Shown here in pieces: positions 22,236 to 28,288 of a DNA stretch of 64,000 nucleotides. Positions within the stretch are counted from its first letter, which is position 1, and each line of letters begins with the position of its first letter. A program made the position numbers and the translations under genes. A model generated the notes under the pieces. It was not told the DNA's origin. It did not search any database and saw nothing but the letters and a program-made list of their open reading frames with translations. The stretch spans positions 32,001 through 96,000 of IMG/VR virus record IMGVR_UViG_2718218135_000001; one strand, given 5' to 3'. Source of the DNA: a virus (taxonomy: Duplodnaviria; Heunggongvirae; Uroviricota; Caudoviricetes).

Positions 22236-22982
22236 ATGTCCAATACCCATGTAAAAAACATCAAACTTGGCGCCTGCAAAGTGTCGTTTGGTGGTGTTGA
22301 TCTGGGTTACACCAAAGGCGGTGTTCAGGTTGAGGTTGCGACCGAAACTCTGAAAGTTACCGTAGACCAGCTAGGGCAAACCACCATCTCCGAGCTGGTA
22401 CAGGGCCGTAACATCACTATCACTGCGCCGCTGGCCGAGTCTGTGTTGCAGAATATGGTCGATCTGATGCCGGGTTCTACCCTGAGTGAAGAAGATAACT
22501 CTGTGACCATCACTTCCGCACAGGGCGTCAACCTGATCGACGTAGCTAAAGAGCTGGTTCTGACCCCGCAGGATACCACCGACTACGTTCTGACCATCCC
22601 GAAAGCTGCGACCGCAGGTAACTTCACCATGACCTACCAGTCTGATGATGTTCGCGTGTTCTCGGTTCAGTTCACCGCTTACCCGGATGACGACGGTATT
22701 CTGGGGAAAATGAGCGGCCCAAAGCCGGTTAAATCCGTCTCTATCTCTCCGGATTCTCCGGAAGTTAAAGCCGGTGAGAGCGTGCAGCTGGCAGCCCAGA
22801 TCACACCTGCAGATGCCGGCGACAAAACCGGTGTGTGGGAGTCCGACAATCAGGAGAAGGCTACCGTTGATCAGACTGGTCTGGTTCGCGGAGTAGCTGA
22901 AGGTTCGGCAAATATCTCCTTCACCAGCAATAGCGGCGGCAAGAAAGCGACCAAAGCTGTAACGGTTAATTCTGCCGAATAA
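22236..22982 (+). CDS. major tail protein (gpV-like) with C-terminal Ig-like domain
   Basis: C-terminal Big_2-like domain as in lambda gpV; terminator downstream. Confidence 0.75.
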   Translation: MSNTHVKNIKLGACKVSFGGVDLGYTKGGVQVEVATETLKVTVDQLGQTTISELVQGRNITITAPLAESVLQNMVDLMPGSTLSEEDNSVTITSAQGVNLIDVAKELVLTPQDTTDYVLTIPKAATAGNFTMTYQSDDVRVFSVQFTAYPDDDGILGKMSGPKPVKSVSISPDSPEVKAGESVQLAAQITPADAGDKTGVWESDNQEKATVDQTGLVRGVAEGSANISFTSNSGGKKATKAVTVNSAE

Positions 22983-23000
22983 TCGTGACGTGACTAAGCA

Positions 23001-23025
23001 GAGGCTCAGGAAGAGCCTCTCTTTT
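23001..23025 (+). terminator. terminator after major tail gene
   Basis: gaggctc-aggaa-gagcctc followed by TCTTTT. Confidence 0.6.
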
Positions 23026-23041
23026 AAAAGGATTTTAACCA

Positions 23042-23359
23042 ATGACCAAATTACTCGATCTCGACTCCATTCTACCTCCGAAGAAAAGTATCAAGTTCGG
23101 CGGTCAGGAATACCCCATCGTTGAAATGACAGTTGGTCTGTTCGTCTCCATCAAGCAGATGGAAGGCAAAGATCTTCAGAACATGTCTCCTGTAGAGCAG
23201 GTTACTGCTTACGCCGACCTGGTTCGCAAGGTCATCCCATCCGTGCCGGACGCTGTACTGGAAAAACTGACTGTTCCGCAGCTTCAGCAAATCTTCACCT
23301 TCGCTATGGAAGTGATTGATGAAGAGAACGAAAAAGCGGCTGGTGAAGGGGCAAAGTAA
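23042..23359 (+). CDS. tail assembly chaperone (gpG-like)
   Basis: 105 aa acidic protein between major tail and tape measure genes. Confidence 0.6.
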   Translation: MTKLLDLDSILPPKKSIKFGGQEYPIVEMTVGLFVSIKQMEGKDLQNMSPVEQVTAYADLVRKVIPSVPDAVLEKLTVPQLQQIFTFAMEVIDEENEKAAGEGAK

Positions 23360-23709
23360 TTTCCCGCGATGAATCCGGGGTAAAGACCGTATCGATAGAT
23401 CTCGGATTCTATTTCAGTCGTGTAGTTGCTCACTACGCCGTGTCGCCATTAGAGCTGCTGGGCGTCCCTCTAACGATGTTCTGGATGCTCAGTCGCAACA
23501 TCGACCGTCTACGTGCGGAAGAGGATGTCCGCAACCTGCAAGTCGCTCGCGCTGCCCAGGCAGATGGCGAGGGCGTGAAGGCGTTCATGGAGGGTTTGCA
23601 ACTCAGGATTGGAAGACCAGTCGTAACCGATAAAGTCTACGATCCGCGCAAGGATAAGGCAGACCCTGACGCCAAAGAGCAACTGATGCAAATTTTTGGC
23701 AGAGGATGA
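23347..23709 (+). CDS. gpT-like segment, probably expressed as G-T fusion by -1 frameshift
   Basis: -1 frame relative to G is open from 23347; GTG 23440 is the only independent start. Confidence 0.45.
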   Translation, partial: RGKVISRDESGVKTVSIDLGFYFSRVVAHYAVSPLELLGVPLTMFWMLSRNIDRLRAEEDVRNLQVARAAQADGEGVKAFMEGLQLRIGRPVVTDKVYDPRKDKADPDAKEQLMQIFGRG

Positions 23710-23716
23710 CAAGGGA

Positions 23717-26700
23717 ATGTCACAAAACGTAGAGTTTGTCCTGTCGCTGGAAGACAAGCAGTTTACAGCGTCAATCGACCGGGCGGGTAAGCTACTTACC
23801 AGATTCGGGGAGCAGGCCACAAAACCAGCTCAGAAAATTAACAATCTGGAACGCTCGTTGGGTTCGGTCTCCCGCATCATCGGCGTTCTGGAGTCCAAGC
23901 TCGATGCCACGGCAGACAAACTACAGGATGTAGCTGCCGGCTTCGAACTTGTGTCTGATGTTTCGCGCAAGACGCGAGGCAACATTACCAGCCTCAATTC
24001 AGGTCTCAAAACCCTGATTGAGCGCGTCGACACAACCACCTCTTCCGTTAATAAGCTCACCACATCGTTGCGCAAGGTTCAGTCTGAACTCAATGAGTTT
24101 TCCGATTGGGCAACGTTCGCTGGTAAGAGCGCCAGCCGCTTCGGTACGGAGGTAAAAGAAGCCTCTACATCTGTGAGTGGTATGAATACGCGCCTTAACA
24201 CCACGACGAAGCGTCTCAGTAATTGGGGTGTCACAACGAACCAGGCTGCCGAGGGGCTGAAGAAAGTCCGCGATCAGATGGATGCGGTGATTGGCCGCCA
24301 GCAGCTGATCAGCAAGCCGGTGCGTGTGCGCACCAGCGGCTACGGTGAGGGCGGTGGTAATGGCGGTGGCGGTCGACACAGCGGTTCCTATGGCCACGGC
24401 GGGCGCGGTGCTGAAAATGGCGTGTTCTCTGGTCTGCGCGGCAATATTTTCCTGCTGGGCGAGATTGGTGATGCGGCAAGAACGGTAACTGACATCCTGT
24501 TCGGCTGGCAGAAGCCAATCGTCGAAGCTGCCTCCAAAATGGAGCGTATGTGCGTCATGTTGCGCGGGCTGAACAAGGACAAGGCCAACCCTGGCAAAGC
24601 AGCCGCAGAGGATATGCAGTACATCGTGGATATGGCGCAAAACGCCCCGTTTGCGATGCAGGCGCTGACCGATTCCTTCGTTAAATTCCGCTCGGCAGGT
24701 CTCGATCCTACTGACGGATCGCTGAAAGCATTGGTGGACTCTGTTGCACGCTTCGGCGGCGATAGTGAACTGCTAAAACGCGCAGCAGTGGCCGTCCAGC
24801 AGATGTCCGGTAAGGGCGTCGTTTCGATGGAAGAACTGCGTCAGCAATTAGGTGAAGCCGTTCCTAACGCGATGAAAGCGATGGCAGACGCTGCCGGCAT
24901 TACTATGGGGGAACTGACCAAAGCAGTCTCCAGCGGTACTGTGGAAGCGAAACAGGCGTTATCGCTGATGTTCGTTGGTCTGCGTGCAGAGAACGAAAAC
25001 GCCGCCAAAGACATGATGCAAACCTACACCGGTGCGCTGGCGCAACTACAAACCTCCTTTACGTTGTTCGCCGATCGTGTCGGTCAGACGGGCTATCTGG
25101 ATTCTCTCTCTAAGGGAATGAAAGAACTAGCCTCCATCATGAATAGCGCAGAAGGGATTTCGTTTGCTAATTCTTTAGGTTCGGGGTTAACGACGGCAAT
25201 CGATGGGTTGCGTCAGCTTGCTCAATGGTTAGCAAAGAACCAAGAGCTGGTAATTAATCTTGGTAAGGTCGTGGCCGCGATGGTTGCGTTCAAACTGATG
25301 CGAGCAGGGATCATGGGGGTAGTTGGCGCTGGGAGCCAGATGGTTAGCACCTTTGCCACGATGGCGACCGCCATACAGACTCCATTTAACCTCGGCGCTA
25401 CAGCAGTAACTCGATTCAATCGTGCGGCACGTATGGGGCTGGCTCCGATCCCCTCTCTTATTTTCGCCATCCGTGGGGCGATTACGGGGCTTAAAGGCGC
25501 TTTTGCTGGATTAACGGCGTTCATTGCAGCAAATCCAATTGGCGCTGCGTTTACCGTGGCAACCGTGGCCGTGGCCGGGTTGATCACGTATATGACCATG
25601 CTTCGCAGCGAAACGTCAAAAGTCGTTGACGAGATTAGGAAAATACCAGAGGCGATGACGGCGGCCAAACGTGCACAAATGGCGGAGTATAAAGCGCGTC
25701 TTGAGCAACAAATCACGCAAAAGGAACAAGAGTTAAAATCTGGCGAAAAGGTGGTTTATGGGCCGGGTATGGCCGGAACTGCAGTAAAGATTAATCAGGA
25801 TGAACGTAAGCGTATAGAAAATGAGCTAAATGACCTTCGTGAGAAACGCGATAAAACTACTGGGGCAATTGAACGCGGAGACACTGCTGTAGCCAAACGT
25901 CTTGCAAAAGATGCGGCAGAATCACAGATAGAGAAAATACGGGAAGAGAATAGAGACTTTGCGGCAACATTCGCTAAAGCTCGTCAAGAGGCTCTGGAGA
26001 AGATCCAAAAAATCAATGATGACGATTCACTTTCTGATGACGAAAAGAACAAACTATTGGCACCGTTACGTGAAACGGTAAACAAAAGCTATCTGGAGCC
26101 TGCGCAAAAACTGGTTGATTCACTTTCTTCTCGTAAGAATGCGACCGAGAAGCAAATCGCGACTCTTAATGATCAGCTTGAAAAAGCCAAAAAAGATGGC
26201 AATACCGAGCAGATCCAGAAACTGCAAGGCAGTATTCGTGGTTATCAGGAGCATTTGGAAGCCGTTGCTCAGGAGCTGACTCAGGCAGAGTTCGAGAGAG
26301 ATAATGCGGCCAAAACTGGTAAGGGCGTAATGTCAAACCAGGGGACTGTTCTTGGGTTAGGTACAACTGATAAAGCTGCTCAGAAGGCGCTGGCGCAATA
26401 TATGCGAAACCAGATGGATTCTGCGACTTATCAGCGTACTTTGCCTGACGGCACTCCGATGATGGACTTCGAAGGTAAGCCGATTATTGGGCCTAAACAA
26501 CTCAAGACGCAGCTTAATTTGCAGAAAGCATCCAGTGCCAGCTCTCTGGAGAAAATGAGCGATGCGGAACGCGCCGCAGCCATTGCAGCGCTGACCAAAG
26601 CGCGCGAACAGGATGCCGCAGCAGCGGAAAAAGCCGGGCGACGTACAGCCAATGCTTCTCAGCGTGCGGCCAAGAAAGAACAGGCAGCGCAACAGAAACT

Positions 26701-28288
26701 GGCGGCCGGATATCAGAAGGCTCTGGATAAAGCCGATCAGCTTATGGGGCAAATGGGTGAAAGCTCTAAGGCTACGGTATCGTTTGATCAGTCTCTTCGC
26801 GATACAACGAAATCGCTGACTGATTTGGCTAATGCGGTTCCTAACGAGTTCATCACTCAAGAGATGATCGACAAGGCGAAAAAACGTCTTGAAGACCTTA
26901 AAAATGCGACACCTGAATATCGCGAGATGTTTAATCGCCGCAATGTTGAGCAGATGATCTCCACTTGGGCACCGGAGGCGGATTCCATTATTAGTGCTGG
27001 CTATACGCCGTCTCGCGAAGAGAAAGTTGCTGATTTCGAAGACACCTACAACCGCAATCTCAAAGCGTTGATAGAACTTCGTGATAAGGCGTCTGATCCT
27101 AAAGTTGTGGCGCTTTATACAAAGAAAATCAATCAACTGATTGCTGCTGGCAATACCGCGCTTATTAAAGAGACGGGGACTGCGACGCAGAAGTTGGCAC
27201 TGGAATACGAAAACCTGGCAGAGCAGATCGAAAGCACCTGGACTGATTTGTTTAGTGGCTTAACTGATGTTCTGACTGATTTCGTTATTAACGGGAAGAT
27301 GAGCTTCTCCAGCCTGTCCCAGTCCATTTTGAAAGATATCACCAATATGGTCGTGAAGTCGCAGATCACGCTGCCTCTAATGAACATGTTGGGGATGGGA
27401 ACCACCGCAGTTGGTAGTTCACAGAGTGGTAATTTGCTCACCGGGGTTGCTTCCGCAGTTGCCAATCAAGGTGTGCGCATAAGCAACACTGTTAATGGCG
27501 ACAAGTCGGTAGGAGAAGCCACGAAGGAGACGTCCAGTTCGGTAACTGGATTGGGGCAAACGACACAGCAGACCACCAGCGCAATTGGCACAGCAACAAA
27601 TGCGATTGGTAGCTGGGTATCAGGGCTATTTGATAGCACCGAAGCCAAAGATGCTGAGACAAAAGCAGTGAAGGATTCCATCTTCTCGATGCAGAACCTC
27701 AGCTCTGTTACCGGTGCTCTGTCTGCCGCGTTCGCAATGCTTGGAGCTAATGCTTCCGGCTCTGGTAATAAGTGGTTGAATTTCGGCGCGACAGTTGCAT
27801 CTGGGTTGGTTTCAGTATGGGCAGGTGGTGGTTTCGACAGCGCGACATCAAACTCTGCTAAAACCGCAACCAGCAGTGTGGCTGACGGAACTAAAGGCAT
27901 TCCTGCAATCCCGAAGTTTGCAAATGGAGGAATATTCGGAAAAGACGGCGTGATCCCGCTCCGGGCATACCAGAAAGGCGGTATTGCTAACTCGCCTCAA
28001 TTAGCGTTGTTTGGGGAAGGTTCTATGAATGAGGCGTATGTTCCATTGCCTGATGGTCGAACAATCCCTGTAACGCTCAGTACCGATGGTATGAGTGGAG
28101 GAGGAAATGTTCTTTCTCCGGTATCAATTGAGATCAACGTCCATAGTGACGGTAGCACAACTGAATCCGGCGATACAGAAAGCATATGGAACAATGCCGC
28201 TCAACGGATGAAAGCAATCGCGCTTGAGACTATCGCTCAAGAGAAACGCCCTGGCGGATCACTCAACCCAAACACTCAACGTAACTAA
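23717..28288 (+). CDS. tail tape measure protein
   Basis: 1523 aa, coiled-coil and Gly-rich segments, canonical position; ATG with AAGGGA RBS. Confidence 0.85.
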   Translation: MSQNVEFVLSLEDKQFTASIDRAGKLLTRFGEQATKPAQKINNLERSLGSVSRIIGVLESKLDATADKLQDVAAGFELVSDVSRKTRGNITSLNSGLKTLIERVDTTTSSVNKLTTSLRKVQSELNEFSDWATFAGKSASRFGTEVKEASTSVSGMNTRLNTTTKRLSNWGVTTNQAAEGLKKVRDQMDAVIGRQQLISKPVRVRTSGYGEGGGNGGGGRHSGSYGHGGRGAENGVFSGLRGNIFLLGEIGDAARTVTDILFGWQKPIVEAASKMERMCVMLRGLNKDKANPGKAAAEDMQYIVDMAQNAPFAMQALTDSFVKFRSAGLDPTDGSLKALVDSVARFGGDSELLKRAAVAVQQMSGKGVVSMEELRQQLGEAVPNAMKAMADAAGITMGELTKAVSSGTVEAKQALSLMFVGLRAENENAAKDMMQTYTGALAQLQTSFTLFADRVGQTGYLDSLSKGMKELASIMNSAEGISFANSLGSGLTTAIDGLRQLAQWLAKNQELVINLGKVVAAMVAFKLMRAGIMGVVGAGSQMVSTFATMATAIQTPFNLGATAVTRFNRAARMGLAPIPSLIFAIRGAITGLKGAFAGLTAFIAANPIGAAFTVATVAVAGLITYMTMLRSETSKVVDEIRKIPEAMTAAKRAQMAEYKARLEQQITQKEQELKSGEKVVYGPGMAGTAVKINQDERKRIENELNDLREKRDKTTGAIERGDTAVAKRLAKDAAESQIEKIREENRDFAATFAKARQEALEKIQKINDDDSLSDDEKNKLLAPLRETVNKSYLEPAQKLVDSLSSRKNATEKQIATLNDQLEKAKKDGNTEQIQKLQGSIRGYQEHLEAVAQELTQAEFERDNAAKTGKGVMSNQGTVLGLGTTDKAAQKALAQYMRNQMDSATYQRTLPDGTPMMDFEGKPIIGPKQLKTQLNLQKASSASSLEKMSDAERAAAIAALTKAREQDAAAAEKAGRRTANASQRAAKKEQAAQQKLAAGYQKALDKADQLMGQMGESSKATVSFDQSLRDTTKSLTDLANAVPNEFITQEMIDKAKKRLEDLKNATPEYREMFNRRNVEQMISTWAPEADSIISAGYTPSREEKVADFEDTYNRNLKALIELRDKASDPKVVALYTKKINQLIAAGNTALIKETGTATQKLALEYENLAEQIESTWTDLFSGLTDVLTDFVINGKMSFSSLSQSILKDITNMVVKSQITLPLMNMLGMGTTAVGSSQSGNLLTGVASAVANQGVRISNTVNGDKSVGEATKETSSSVTGLGQTTQQTTSAIGTATNAIGSWVSGLFDSTEAKDAETKAVKDSIFSMQNLSSVTGALSAAFAMLGANASGSGNKWLNFGATVASGLVSVWAGGGFDSATSNSAKTATSSVADGTKGIPAIPKFANGGIFGKDGVIPLRAYQKGGIANSPQLALFGEGSMNEAYVPLPDGRTIPVTLSTDGMSGGGNVLSPVSIEINVHSDGSTTESGDTESIWNNAAQRMKAIALETIAQEKRPGGSLNPNTQRN

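What the first reader, a model, noticed from the sequence alone, without database searches (positions are those of the whole stretch)
23330..23445. G/T-like arrangement with a non-canonical shift site at the G stop codon
The -1 frame is open only from 23347, and G stops at 23357-59, so any G-T fusion must shift within GGG GCA AAG TAA. There is no XXXYYYZ heptamer; the only plausible mechanism is P-site slippage of tRNA-Lys from AAG to AAA while the stop codon sits in the A site.
Basis: inference. Interest (0 to 1): 0.4.

Follow-up and report, generated by a model that had tools for sequence, protein, structure and literature searches.

The report
Unannotated tail-chaperone frameshift at A_AAG-stop
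In this SSU5-like phage-plasmid, the two small "hypothetical" genes between the tail-tube and tape-measure genes are almost certainly a lambda-style G/GT tail-chaperone pair, joined by a -1 ribosomal slip on the four bases A_AAG just before the stop codon; this is a known kind of signal that nobody has annotated in this phage family.

Summary
G (23042-23359) ends GCA AAG TAA. The -1 frame is closed by TGA 23344-46 and then open to 23709. There is no X_XXY_YYZ heptamer in the 10-nt overlap.

Comparative data support a real -1 shift at A_AAG (23353-56):
- In 102 related loci (23 distinct junctions, G identity 49-100%), NNA_AAG_TAR is invariant.
- The third base of codon 104 stays A although the residue switches between Ala and Val. 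None of the 14 conserved four-fold codons in G keeps its third base.
- The 27 aligned codons before GTG 23440 evolve under purifying selection in the -1 frame only (pN/pS 0.15-0.29 in the six divergent comparisons, against at least 0.8 in the other frames).
- GTG 23440 is not conserved.

G lies between the major tail and tape-measure genes, and its model resembles tail assembly chaperones.

Sequence cannot show that the slip happens in the P site with the stop in the A site. A_AAG is a recognised -1 motif class (IS1222, B. subtilis cdd), so "non-canonical" overstates it. No conserved stimulator was found apart from the abutting stop and a weakly supported hairpin 14 nt downstream.

Verdict: a new, unannotated member of two known kinds. 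Interest is moderate to low.

The parts
22236..22982 (+). Major tail (tube) protein with a C-terminal Big_2 Ig-like domain. This is the upstream synteny anchor.
   Evidence: phrog_1280 and major tail protein PHROGs. Pfam Big_2 at residues 164-242, E 2.8e-26.
23042..23359 (+). G-like ORF, 105 aa plus TAA. Proposed tail assembly chaperone.
23344..23346 (+). TGA in the -1 frame. It sets the 5' limit of the possible shift window.
   Evidence: It arises from GGT GAA. Lineages with GGC GAA lack it and have a 34-nt overlap.
23351..23359 (+). Shift cassette GCA_AAG_TAA. The slip tetramer A_AAG is 23353-23356 and the G stop is 23357-23359.
   Evidence: NNA_AAG_TAR is invariant in 102 loci and 23 distinct junctions, with G identity down to 49%. 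The third base of codon 104 is always A while the residue varies between Ala and Val. Lys105 is always AAG. None of the 14 conserved four-fold codons in G has an invariant third base.
23356..23709 (+). T-like segment in the -1 frame: 117 codons from GTA 23356 to GGA 23704-06, stop TGA 23707-09. The predicted fusion product is 105 + 117 = 222 aa.
   Evidence: Open frame. phrog_1131 matches only the C-terminal 84 residues. The 27 aligned gapless codons before GTG 23440 have pN/pS 0.15-0.29 in the -1 frame for the six comparisons with relatives of 63-74% G identity, and at least 0.8 in the other frames. Variable sites by codon position are 13:3:24 over 31 codons. Ile 23359-61 is ATT, ATC or ATA in relatives.
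23440..23442 (+). GTG, the first possible start codon in the -1 frame. It is not a conserved start.
   Evidence: It is GTA in the Klebsiella lineage and ATT in L091, L093 and L095. Gene callers give T-like proteins of 69-131 aa with differing starts.
23371..23409 (+). Candidate downstream hairpin: GAAUCCGG 23371-78 pairs with UCGGAUUC 23402-09. The spacer from AAG is 14 nt.
   Evidence: Part of the minimum-free-energy fold, z -1.69. The 8 pairs are 100% paired in 16 diverse sequences with one compensatory U-A to G-C change, but 29 of 500 shuffles do as well. Both arms also encode conserved residues. Support is weak.
23717..28288 (+). Tape measure protein. This is the downstream synteny anchor.
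   Evidence: Pfam TMP_3 E 4.6e-27 and Tape_meas_lam_C E 6.1e-13.

Best explanation
Most ribosomes translating the G-like gene terminate at TAA 23357-59 and release a 105-aa tail assembly chaperone. A minority slip back one base when tRNA-Lys (anticodon mnm5s2UUU) decoding AAG 23354-56 re-pairs with AAA 23353-55. They then read GUA 23356-58 and continue in the -1 frame to 23706. The product is a 222-aa G-T fusion (...AAGEGAK-VISRDESGVKTVSIDLGFYFSR...).

By analogy with lambda gpG/gpGT, the G part would bind the tape measure protein encoded immediately downstream. The T part would recruit the major tail protein, at a fixed low GT:G ratio.

Shown here: the frame geometry, the conservation of the slip motif at nucleotide level, protein-coding selection in the -1 frame starting right at the stop codon, the absence of a conserved start codon, and the synteny.

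Inferred: that the fusion is actually made, its ratio to G, the chaperone function, and whether the slip happens in the P site with the stop in the A site or one step earlier.
For: Geometry.

Synteny: major tail protein, then G, then T, then tape measure. The same order is seen in relatives.

Motif conservation: G[CT]A_AAG_TA[AG] is present in all 102 loci and 23 distinct junctions, with G identity 49-100%. The C-terminal Lys is invariant. The third base of codon 104 is invariant although the amino acid changes, whereas 0 of 14 conserved four-fold codons in G keep their third base.

Coding signal in the -1 frame before any start codon: pN/pS 0.15-0.29 in the six divergent comparisons, against at least 0.8 in the other frames; codon-position variability 13:3:24; in-frame codon indels only.

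No conserved start: GTG 23440 is lost in several lineages, and annotated starts are inconsistent.

Fold: the G model resembles tail assembly chaperones.

Known mechanism: A_AAG is the most shift-prone Z_ZZN tetramer in E. coli, and NNA_AAG is used by IS1222.

Parallel case: divergent relatives carry a second cassette of the same design, C_CCA_AAG plus a stop, which places the Big_2 domain of the major tail protein in the -1 frame.
Against: There is no experimental evidence for the fusion.

In reporter constructs, Z_ZZN tetramers without a stimulator were barely above background, about 0.15%. No convincing stimulator is conserved here. SD-like pairing upstream varies from -7.1 to -1.9 kcal/mol. 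The hairpin lies 14 nt away and is not statistically supported.

From my own knowledge, not checked here: UAA followed by U is an efficient terminator context in E. coli, which argues against a long pause at the stop.

In the L080 lineage an ATG lies 11 codons after the junction, so independent initiation cannot be excluded there.
Confidence: 0.8

Rival explanations
1. There is no frameshift. The T-like protein is made on its own from GTG 23440 or ATG 23476, as every database record annotates it, and G and T are two separate proteins.
For: All records call two separate hypothetical proteins. phrog_1131 covers only the part downstream of about 23455.
Against: The 27 aligned codons upstream of GTG 23440 are under purifying selection in the -1 frame only and are among the best-conserved parts of T. 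GTG 23440 is GTA or ATT in other lineages. No SD-like sequence precedes GTG 23440 or ATG 23476. Annotated starts differ widely. The slip motif is conserved at nucleotide level.
Confidence: 0.06
2. The fusion is the same, but the slip is not a P-site event with the stop in the A site. tRNA-Lys slips while in the A site or during translocation, with tRNA-Ala (or tRNA-Val) on GCA (or GUA) in the P site. This is the hexanucleotide NNA_AAG mode. The abutting stop would then be incidental, or would serve only to minimise the overlap.
For: The review describes NNA_AAG frameshifting as dependent on the 5' codon, with higher levels for codons whose tRNAs wobble more. Here the 5' codon is restricted to GCA or GUA in all lineages. 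UAAU is, also from my own knowledge, an efficient termination context.
Against: The position of the stop directly after AAG is invariant in 23 distinct junctions. The second cassette in relatives also has its stop directly after AAG, with TAA, TAG and TGA all seen. That points to selection for stop adjacency. Neither observation settles the timing.
Confidence: 0.4
3. Termination followed by re-initiation: ribosomes stop at UAA and restart in the -1 frame at a nearby non-canonical codon such as AUU 23359-61, giving a free T protein that includes the conserved N-terminal stretch.
For: It would explain coding selection from 23359 onward without a fusion. AUU overlaps the stop (UAAUU).
Against: That codon is ATT, ATC, ATA, GTT, GAA or GTA in relatives, and most of these are not usable starts. 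It would not explain the invariance of the A before AAG, or of AAG over AAA.
Confidence: 0.03
4. Translational hop: peptidyl-tRNA-Lys takes off from AAG 23354-56 at the stop and lands on the -1-frame AAG at 23383-85.
For: A matching AAG exists 29 nt downstream in the -1 frame.
Against: The landing codon is AGG in the Cyrano lineage and absent in divergent lineages. The skipped codons KVI[ST]R[DEG]E[SA]G are conserved as protein, with synonymous changes.
Confidence: 0.01

Closest known systems
Phage lambda gpG/gpGT tail assembly chaperones (Levin, Hendrix and Casjens 1993; Xu, Hendrix and Duda 2004, as cited in PMC5009743)
   Same: Two small overlapping ORFs lie between the major tail gene and the tape measure gene. 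The second ORF is in the -1 frame without its own conserved start. The slip occurs on a Lys AAG codon near the end of G. The expected result is a minor fusion product.
   Different: Lambda uses the heptamer G_GGA_AAG, where two tRNAs re-pair. Here only the tetramer A_AAG can re-pair (G_GCA_AAG), and it abuts the stop codon. G and T have no detectable sequence similarity to named chaperone families. Fold similarity is modest.
NNA_AAG / Z_ZZN single-tRNA -1 frameshift sites: IS1222 G_CGA_AAG, B. subtilis cdd A_CGA_AAG, IS3 A_AAG constructs (PMC5009743, PMC4066793)
   Same: The same slip tetramer A_AAG and the same tRNA-Lys AAG-to-AAA re-pairing. The identity of the 5' codon is constrained.
   Different: The 5' codon is GCA or GUA rather than CGA. 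No pseudoknot, stem-loop or SD stimulator at a standard distance could be shown. The zero-frame stop directly follows the motif.
'Shifty stop' frameshifting (Weiss et al. 1987; prfB CUU_UGA +1)
   Same: A re-pairing-competent codon lies immediately 5' of a stop codon, and the adjacency is conserved.
   Different: The direction is -1, not +1. The stop is UAA or UAG followed in most lineages by U, which from my own knowledge is an efficient terminator context. No conserved SD stimulator is present.
Ig-like domains appended to phage structural proteins by programmed frameshift
   Same: In relatives L093-L100 the Big_2 domain of the major tail protein lies in the -1 frame after C_CCA_AAG plus a stop. 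The design matches the G/T junction.
   Different: That site is a full heptamer. In the window itself the domain is fused in frame.

Membership tests
Lambda-type G/GT tail assembly chaperone pair | Gene pair located between the major tail protein gene and the tape measure gene | tested here: met
   Major tail protein 22236-22982 (Big_2, tail PHROGs), G 23042-23359, T to 23709, tape measure 23717-28288 (TMP_3, Tape_meas_lam_C). Relatives have the same order.
Lambda-type G/GT tail assembly chaperone pair | Second ORF overlaps the end of the first in the -1 frame and lacks its own conserved start | tested here: met
   The -1 frame is open from 23347 to 23709. The first start candidate, GTG 23440, is not conserved. 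Coding selection begins at the stop codon.
Lambda-type G/GT tail assembly chaperone pair | Conserved slippery sequence in the overlap | tested here: met
   A_AAG is invariant in 102 loci and 23 distinct junctions. It is a tetramer, not a heptamer.
Lambda-type G/GT tail assembly chaperone pair | Sequence homology of G to known chaperone families (Pfam Phage_TAC families and the like) | tested here: not met
   No Pfam hit at E up to 1. No NCBIfam hit. No meaningful PDB sequence hit. PHROGs 893 and 1131 have unknown function.
Lambda-type G/GT tail assembly chaperone pair | Chaperone-like fold of G | tested here: inconclusive
Lambda-type G/GT tail assembly chaperone pair | Fusion protein made at a low fixed ratio and required for tail assembly; absent from virions | not testable with these tools
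   Needs expression and genetic experiments.
Canonical X_XXY_YYZ heptamer -1 site | Both P-site and A-site tRNAs can re-pair in the -1 frame | tested here: not met
   The heptamer is G_GCA_AAG. GCA shifted to GGC re-pairs at one position only. In relatives it is G_GCA, A_GCA, C_GUA or A_GUA.
Z_ZZN / NNA_AAG single-tRNA -1 frameshift sites | Z_ZZN tetramer in the zero frame allowing cognate re-pairing in the -1 frame | tested here: met
   A_AAG at 23353-56, with AAG as the zero-frame codon.
Z_ZZN / NNA_AAG single-tRNA -1 frameshift sites | Host decodes AAA and AAG with a single tRNA-Lys (UUU) | not tested
   The hosts are Enterobacterales: the locus is on plasmids in 231 of 5426 complete E. coli genomes. 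That E. coli has a single tRNA-Lys is taken from the review.
Z_ZZN / NNA_AAG single-tRNA -1 frameshift sites | Stimulatory element (downstream structure 5-9 nt away, or upstream SD 6-17 nt away) | tested here: inconclusive
   An 8-bp hairpin is conserved, but it lies 14 nt downstream and 29 of 500 shuffles match it. SD-like pairing is not conserved.
Shifty-stop frameshift sites | Stop codon immediately 3' of the slip codon, conserved | tested here: met
   TAA or TAG directly follows AAG in all junctions. The second cassette in relatives has TAA, TAG or TGA directly after C_CCA_AAG. A functional role for the stop was not testable.

The most novel reading that the evidence does not exclude
The invariant unit NNA_AAG plus an abutting stop codon may be a self-sufficient, reusable -1 'shifty stop' cassette. 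Relatives use it twice in one tail module, once for major tail protein-Ig and once for G-T. Its efficiency would be set by competition between release factor and tRNA-Lys re-pairing rather than by a heptamer, pseudoknot or SD. The conserved hairpin 14 nt downstream could be a stimulator acting at an unusual distance. If so, the GT:G ratio, and with it tail assembly, would respond to the host's termination capacity.
Probability: 0.25. Interest if true: 0.5.

Novelty: new member of a known kind. Interest (0 to 1): 0.35.

Why it matters
It assigns a function to two genes listed as 'hypothetical' in every record examined for SSU5-like phage-plasmids. This group is common in Enterobacterales: the locus sits on plasmids in 231 of 5426 complete E. 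coli genomes, and the identical G protein is encoded in Yersinia pestis and Kluyvera contigs. The annotation should be a joined, ribosomal-slippage CDS.

It also gives a natural, evolutionarily validated example of a G/T shift that relies on a bare A_AAG tetramer next to a stop codon. That is useful as a training case for frameshift predictors, which look mainly for heptamer-like motifs. It is also a simple substrate for asking how much a 3' stop codon contributes to -1 slippage. It does not change what is understood about frameshifting or tail assembly.

Tried and rejected
- Sequence searches of G and T against Pfam, NCBIfam and the PDB found nothing.
- The T model was poor (pLDDT 64), and its fold search gave no interpretable match.
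- The afdb50 fold library was not available.
- Upstream SD-like stimulator: pairing to the anti-SD is -7.1 kcal/mol in the window's lineage but only 3 nt from AAG, and it drops to -1.9 in relatives. It is not conserved.
- G_GGG or A_GGG as the slip site: GGG is GAG, GAA or GAC in relatives. Rejected.
- A_AAA at 23332-35 (GAA_AAA_G) as the slip site: in the window and in most divergent lineages a shift there runs into TGA 23344. It could only add to A_AAG in the lineages with a 34-nt overlap.
- Transcriptional slippage: the A run is only three bases at the site. Rejected.
- Hopping to AAG 23383: the landing site is not conserved. Rejected.
- Motif enrichment in the window: none, 17 against 15 expected.
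- Literature: no paper in the library links SSU5 to a frameshift or to a tail assembly chaperone at this locus. Licznar et al. 2003 could not be obtained, so the statement that GCA and GUA are favourable 5' codons rests on the review's summary plus my own knowledge.

Full report
**What the window is.** The region 22900-23800 is 97% identical to Salmonella phage SSU5. It is 85-90% identical to Escherichia phages Cyrano and PhiR41_1 and to several Klebsiella phage-plasmids. It is 100% identical to plasmids of several E. coli strains, and the locus is present on plasmids in 231 of 5426 complete E. coli genomes. The window is therefore an SSU5-like phage-plasmid.

**The observation.** The G-like ORF (23042-23359, 105 aa) ends ...GAA GGG GCA AAG TAA. 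The -1 frame has TGA at 23344-46 and is open from 23347 to the stop at 23707-09. Its first ATG/GTG/TTG is GTG 23440. Any fusion must therefore shift inside 23347-23359. No X_XXY_YYZ heptamer exists there. Only A_AAG (23353-56) allows an anticodon to re-pair fully in the -1 frame. The description is correct. The heptamer-length string AAAGTAR is not unusual in itself, with 17 matches against 15 expected in the window.

**Gene context.** Upstream lies the major tail protein with a C-terminal Big_2 domain (22236-22982). Downstream lies the tape measure protein (23717-28288; TMP_3 and Tape_meas_lam_C). This is the classical position of the lambda G/T pair. G and T fall in PHROGs 893 and 1131, both of unknown function. 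They match no Pfam, NCBIfam or PDB sequence.

**Comparative test of the shift site.** I collected 102 related loci from phage records, IMG/VR, GTDB genomes and assemblies. They give 23 distinct junction sequences, and their G proteins are 49-100% identical to the window's. Every one reads G[CT]A AAG TA[AG] at the end of G.

- The C-terminal Lys is invariant, while the three residues before it vary.
- Among 57 distinct full-length G ORFs, only 10 of 106 codons have an invariant third base.
- None of the 14 codon columns with a conserved four-fold-degenerate amino acid keeps its third base.
- Codon 104 keeps its third base A even though the residue itself switches between Ala (GCA) and Val (GTA).
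- Lys105 is always AAG, whereas most other conserved Lys columns mix AAA and AAG.

The A_AAG string is therefore selected as nucleotides, not only as protein. The GGG before it is not conserved (GAG, GAA or GAC in relatives). The -1-frame stop TGA 23344 is present in the window's lineage and in most divergent lineages. It is absent where codon 101 is GGC, and those lineages have a 34-nt overlap.

**Is the -1 frame translated right from the junction?** The stretch between the G stop and GTG 23440 translates in the -1 frame to KVI[ST]R[DEG]E[SA]G..SID[LF]GFYFSRV.A.Y in all lineages. Only whole-codon indels occur.

- Over 31 gapless codon columns, variable sites fall 13:3:24 on codon positions 1, 2 and 3 of the -1 frame.
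- Over 27 aligned codons, pN/pS against the six relatives of 63-74% G identity is 0.15-0.29 in the -1 frame and 0.8-3.4 in the other two frames.
- The codon overlapping the stop is ATT, ATC or ATA (all Ile) in different lineages.
- GTG 23440 is GTA in the Klebsiella lineage and ATT in the L091, L093 and L095 lineages.
- Gene callers have given the T-like protein lengths of 69, 74, 77, 86, 89, 108, 116 and 131 aa. That is what one expects when there is no real start.

No record annotates a frameshift. I found no paper linking this phage family to one.

**Mechanism.** Z_ZZN tetramers are one of the two recognised motif classes for -1 frameshifting. In E. coli, A_AAG is by far the most shift-prone tetramer: 5.6% with the IS3 pseudoknot, but barely above background without a stimulator (PMC4066793). 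NNA_AAG sites are used by IS1222 (G_CGA_AAG) and occur in B. subtilis cdd. Their efficiency depends on the 5' codon, with higher levels where the tRNA reading that codon wobbles more. E. coli has a single tRNA-Lys that pairs better with AAA than with AAG (PMC5009743).

The most likely event is therefore re-pairing of tRNA-Lys from AAG to AAA, followed by decoding of GUA. Sequence cannot show whether this happens with peptidyl-tRNA-Lys in the P site and UAA in the A site, or one step earlier on the hexanucleotide GCA_AAG. The products are identical.

Two facts favour a role for the stop. Its position directly after AAG is invariant. A second cassette in relatives is built the same way (next section). 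One consideration weighs against a long pause at the stop: UAA followed by U is, to my knowledge, an efficient terminator context.

**Stimulators.** SD-like pairing upstream is strong only in the window's own lineage (GAAGGGG, -7.1 kcal/mol). There it lies just 3 nt from AAG, and it is not conserved (-1.9 to -7.1 kcal/mol).

Downstream, an 8-bp hairpin (GAAUCCGG 23371-78 with UCGGAUUC 23402-09) is part of the minimum-free-energy fold (z -1.69). It is fully paired in 16 diverse sequences. Photorhabdus shows one compensatory change (U-A to G-C), and several other changes are wobble-compatible. However, 29 of 500 column shuffles do as well. Both arms encode conserved residues, and the 14-nt spacer is longer than the usual 5-9 nt. 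I treat it as a candidate only.

**A parallel case in relatives.** In lineages L093-L100 the major tail protein ORF stops at [GA]NC CCA AAG followed directly by TAA, TAG or TGA. The Big_2 domain follows in the -1 frame (PK-V[SKA]VTGVTV...). This is a canonical C_CCA_AAG heptamer abutting a stop, about 600 nt upstream of the G/T junction. In the window the same place reads GGC CCA AAG CCG, and the domain is fused in frame. The 'A_AAG plus stop' design is thus used twice in some members of the family. This supports its being functional.

**Rivals.**
- Independent initiation of T is contradicted by the coding selection upstream of any start, by the non-conserved GTG, and by the nucleotide-level conservation of the slip motif.
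- Termination followed by re-initiation at AUU 23359 is contradicted by that codon being ATA, ATC, GTT, GAA or GTA elsewhere.
- A hop to AAG 23383 is contradicted by loss of that codon in relatives and by protein-level conservation of the skipped codons.
- Transcriptional slippage needs a longer homopolymer run than three A's.

**Comparison with what is known, and novelty.** The arrangement works like lambda G/GT and meets its positional and frame criteria. It fails the sequence-homology criterion, and it replaces the heptamer with a tetramer. The slip site is a member of the known A_AAG class. Both components are established. What is new is that this widespread phage-plasmid family has such a pair, unannotated, with a strictly conserved A_AAG-stop junction. 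I rate it a new member of a known kind, with moderate to low interest.

**Practical notes for validation.** By analogy with lambda, the chaperones are not expected in virions, so lysates must be used. Trypsin cleaves at the K-V junction, so another protease is needed.

Noticed in passing
L095 2684-2700; L093 about 2684-2700; also L094, L097, L099, L100: In divergent relatives the major tail protein ORF (163 aa) ends at C_CCA_AAG followed directly by TAA, TAG or TGA, and the Big_2 Ig-like domain lies in the -1 frame (PK-V[SKA]VTGVTV...). This is probably a second programmed -1 frameshift, built like the G/T junction.
   Followed up: partly
window 22718-22732: The window keeps the heptamer C_CCA_AAG inside its in-frame major tail protein-Big_2 fusion. 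A -1 slip there would end at TAA 22730-32 and give a tube protein without the Ig domain (...GPK-AG*). The heptamer is lost in the Cyrano lineage (CCT AAA), so it may be a relic rather than functional.
   Followed up: partly
window 23330-23336 (GAA_AAA_G): A run of five A's gives a second possible -1 site, A_AAA. In the window a shift there ends at TGA 23344-46. In lineages with GGC at codon 101 (Cyrano, Klebsiella) the -1 frame stays open for 34 nt, so a shift there would also yield a G-T fusion with a different linker (K-SGWRRGK-VISR).
   Followed up: partly
window 23371-23409: A conserved 8-bp hairpin (GAAUCCGG/UCGGAUUC) lies 14 nt after the slip site. It is fully paired in 16 diverse sequences with one compensatory change in Photorhabdus. 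It is not significant against shuffles and is confounded by coding constraint.
   Followed up: yes
window 23440-23709 and relatives: Databases hold the T-like protein with at least eight different lengths (69-131 aa) and no name. Public annotation of this gene is inconsistent across hundreds of plasmids.
   Followed up: partly
L087 (Yersinia pestis NCTC5923 contig), L088 and L089 (Kluyvera), L086 and L090 (MAGs labelled Bacillota / Candidatus Fimivivens): L086-L088 encode a G protein identical to the window's, and L089 one 99% identical. Two loci come from metagenome bins labelled as Firmicutes (L090 is only 73% identical). Given the Enterobacterales range of the family, those labels look like binning contamination.
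   Followed up: no
L012, major tail protein region: One IMG/VR relative reads GGC CCA AAG CGG TGA at the tube/Ig junction. This is an apparent deletion that truncates the tube protein right after the heptamer. It may be an assembly error or a natural variant without the Ig domain.
   Followed up: no
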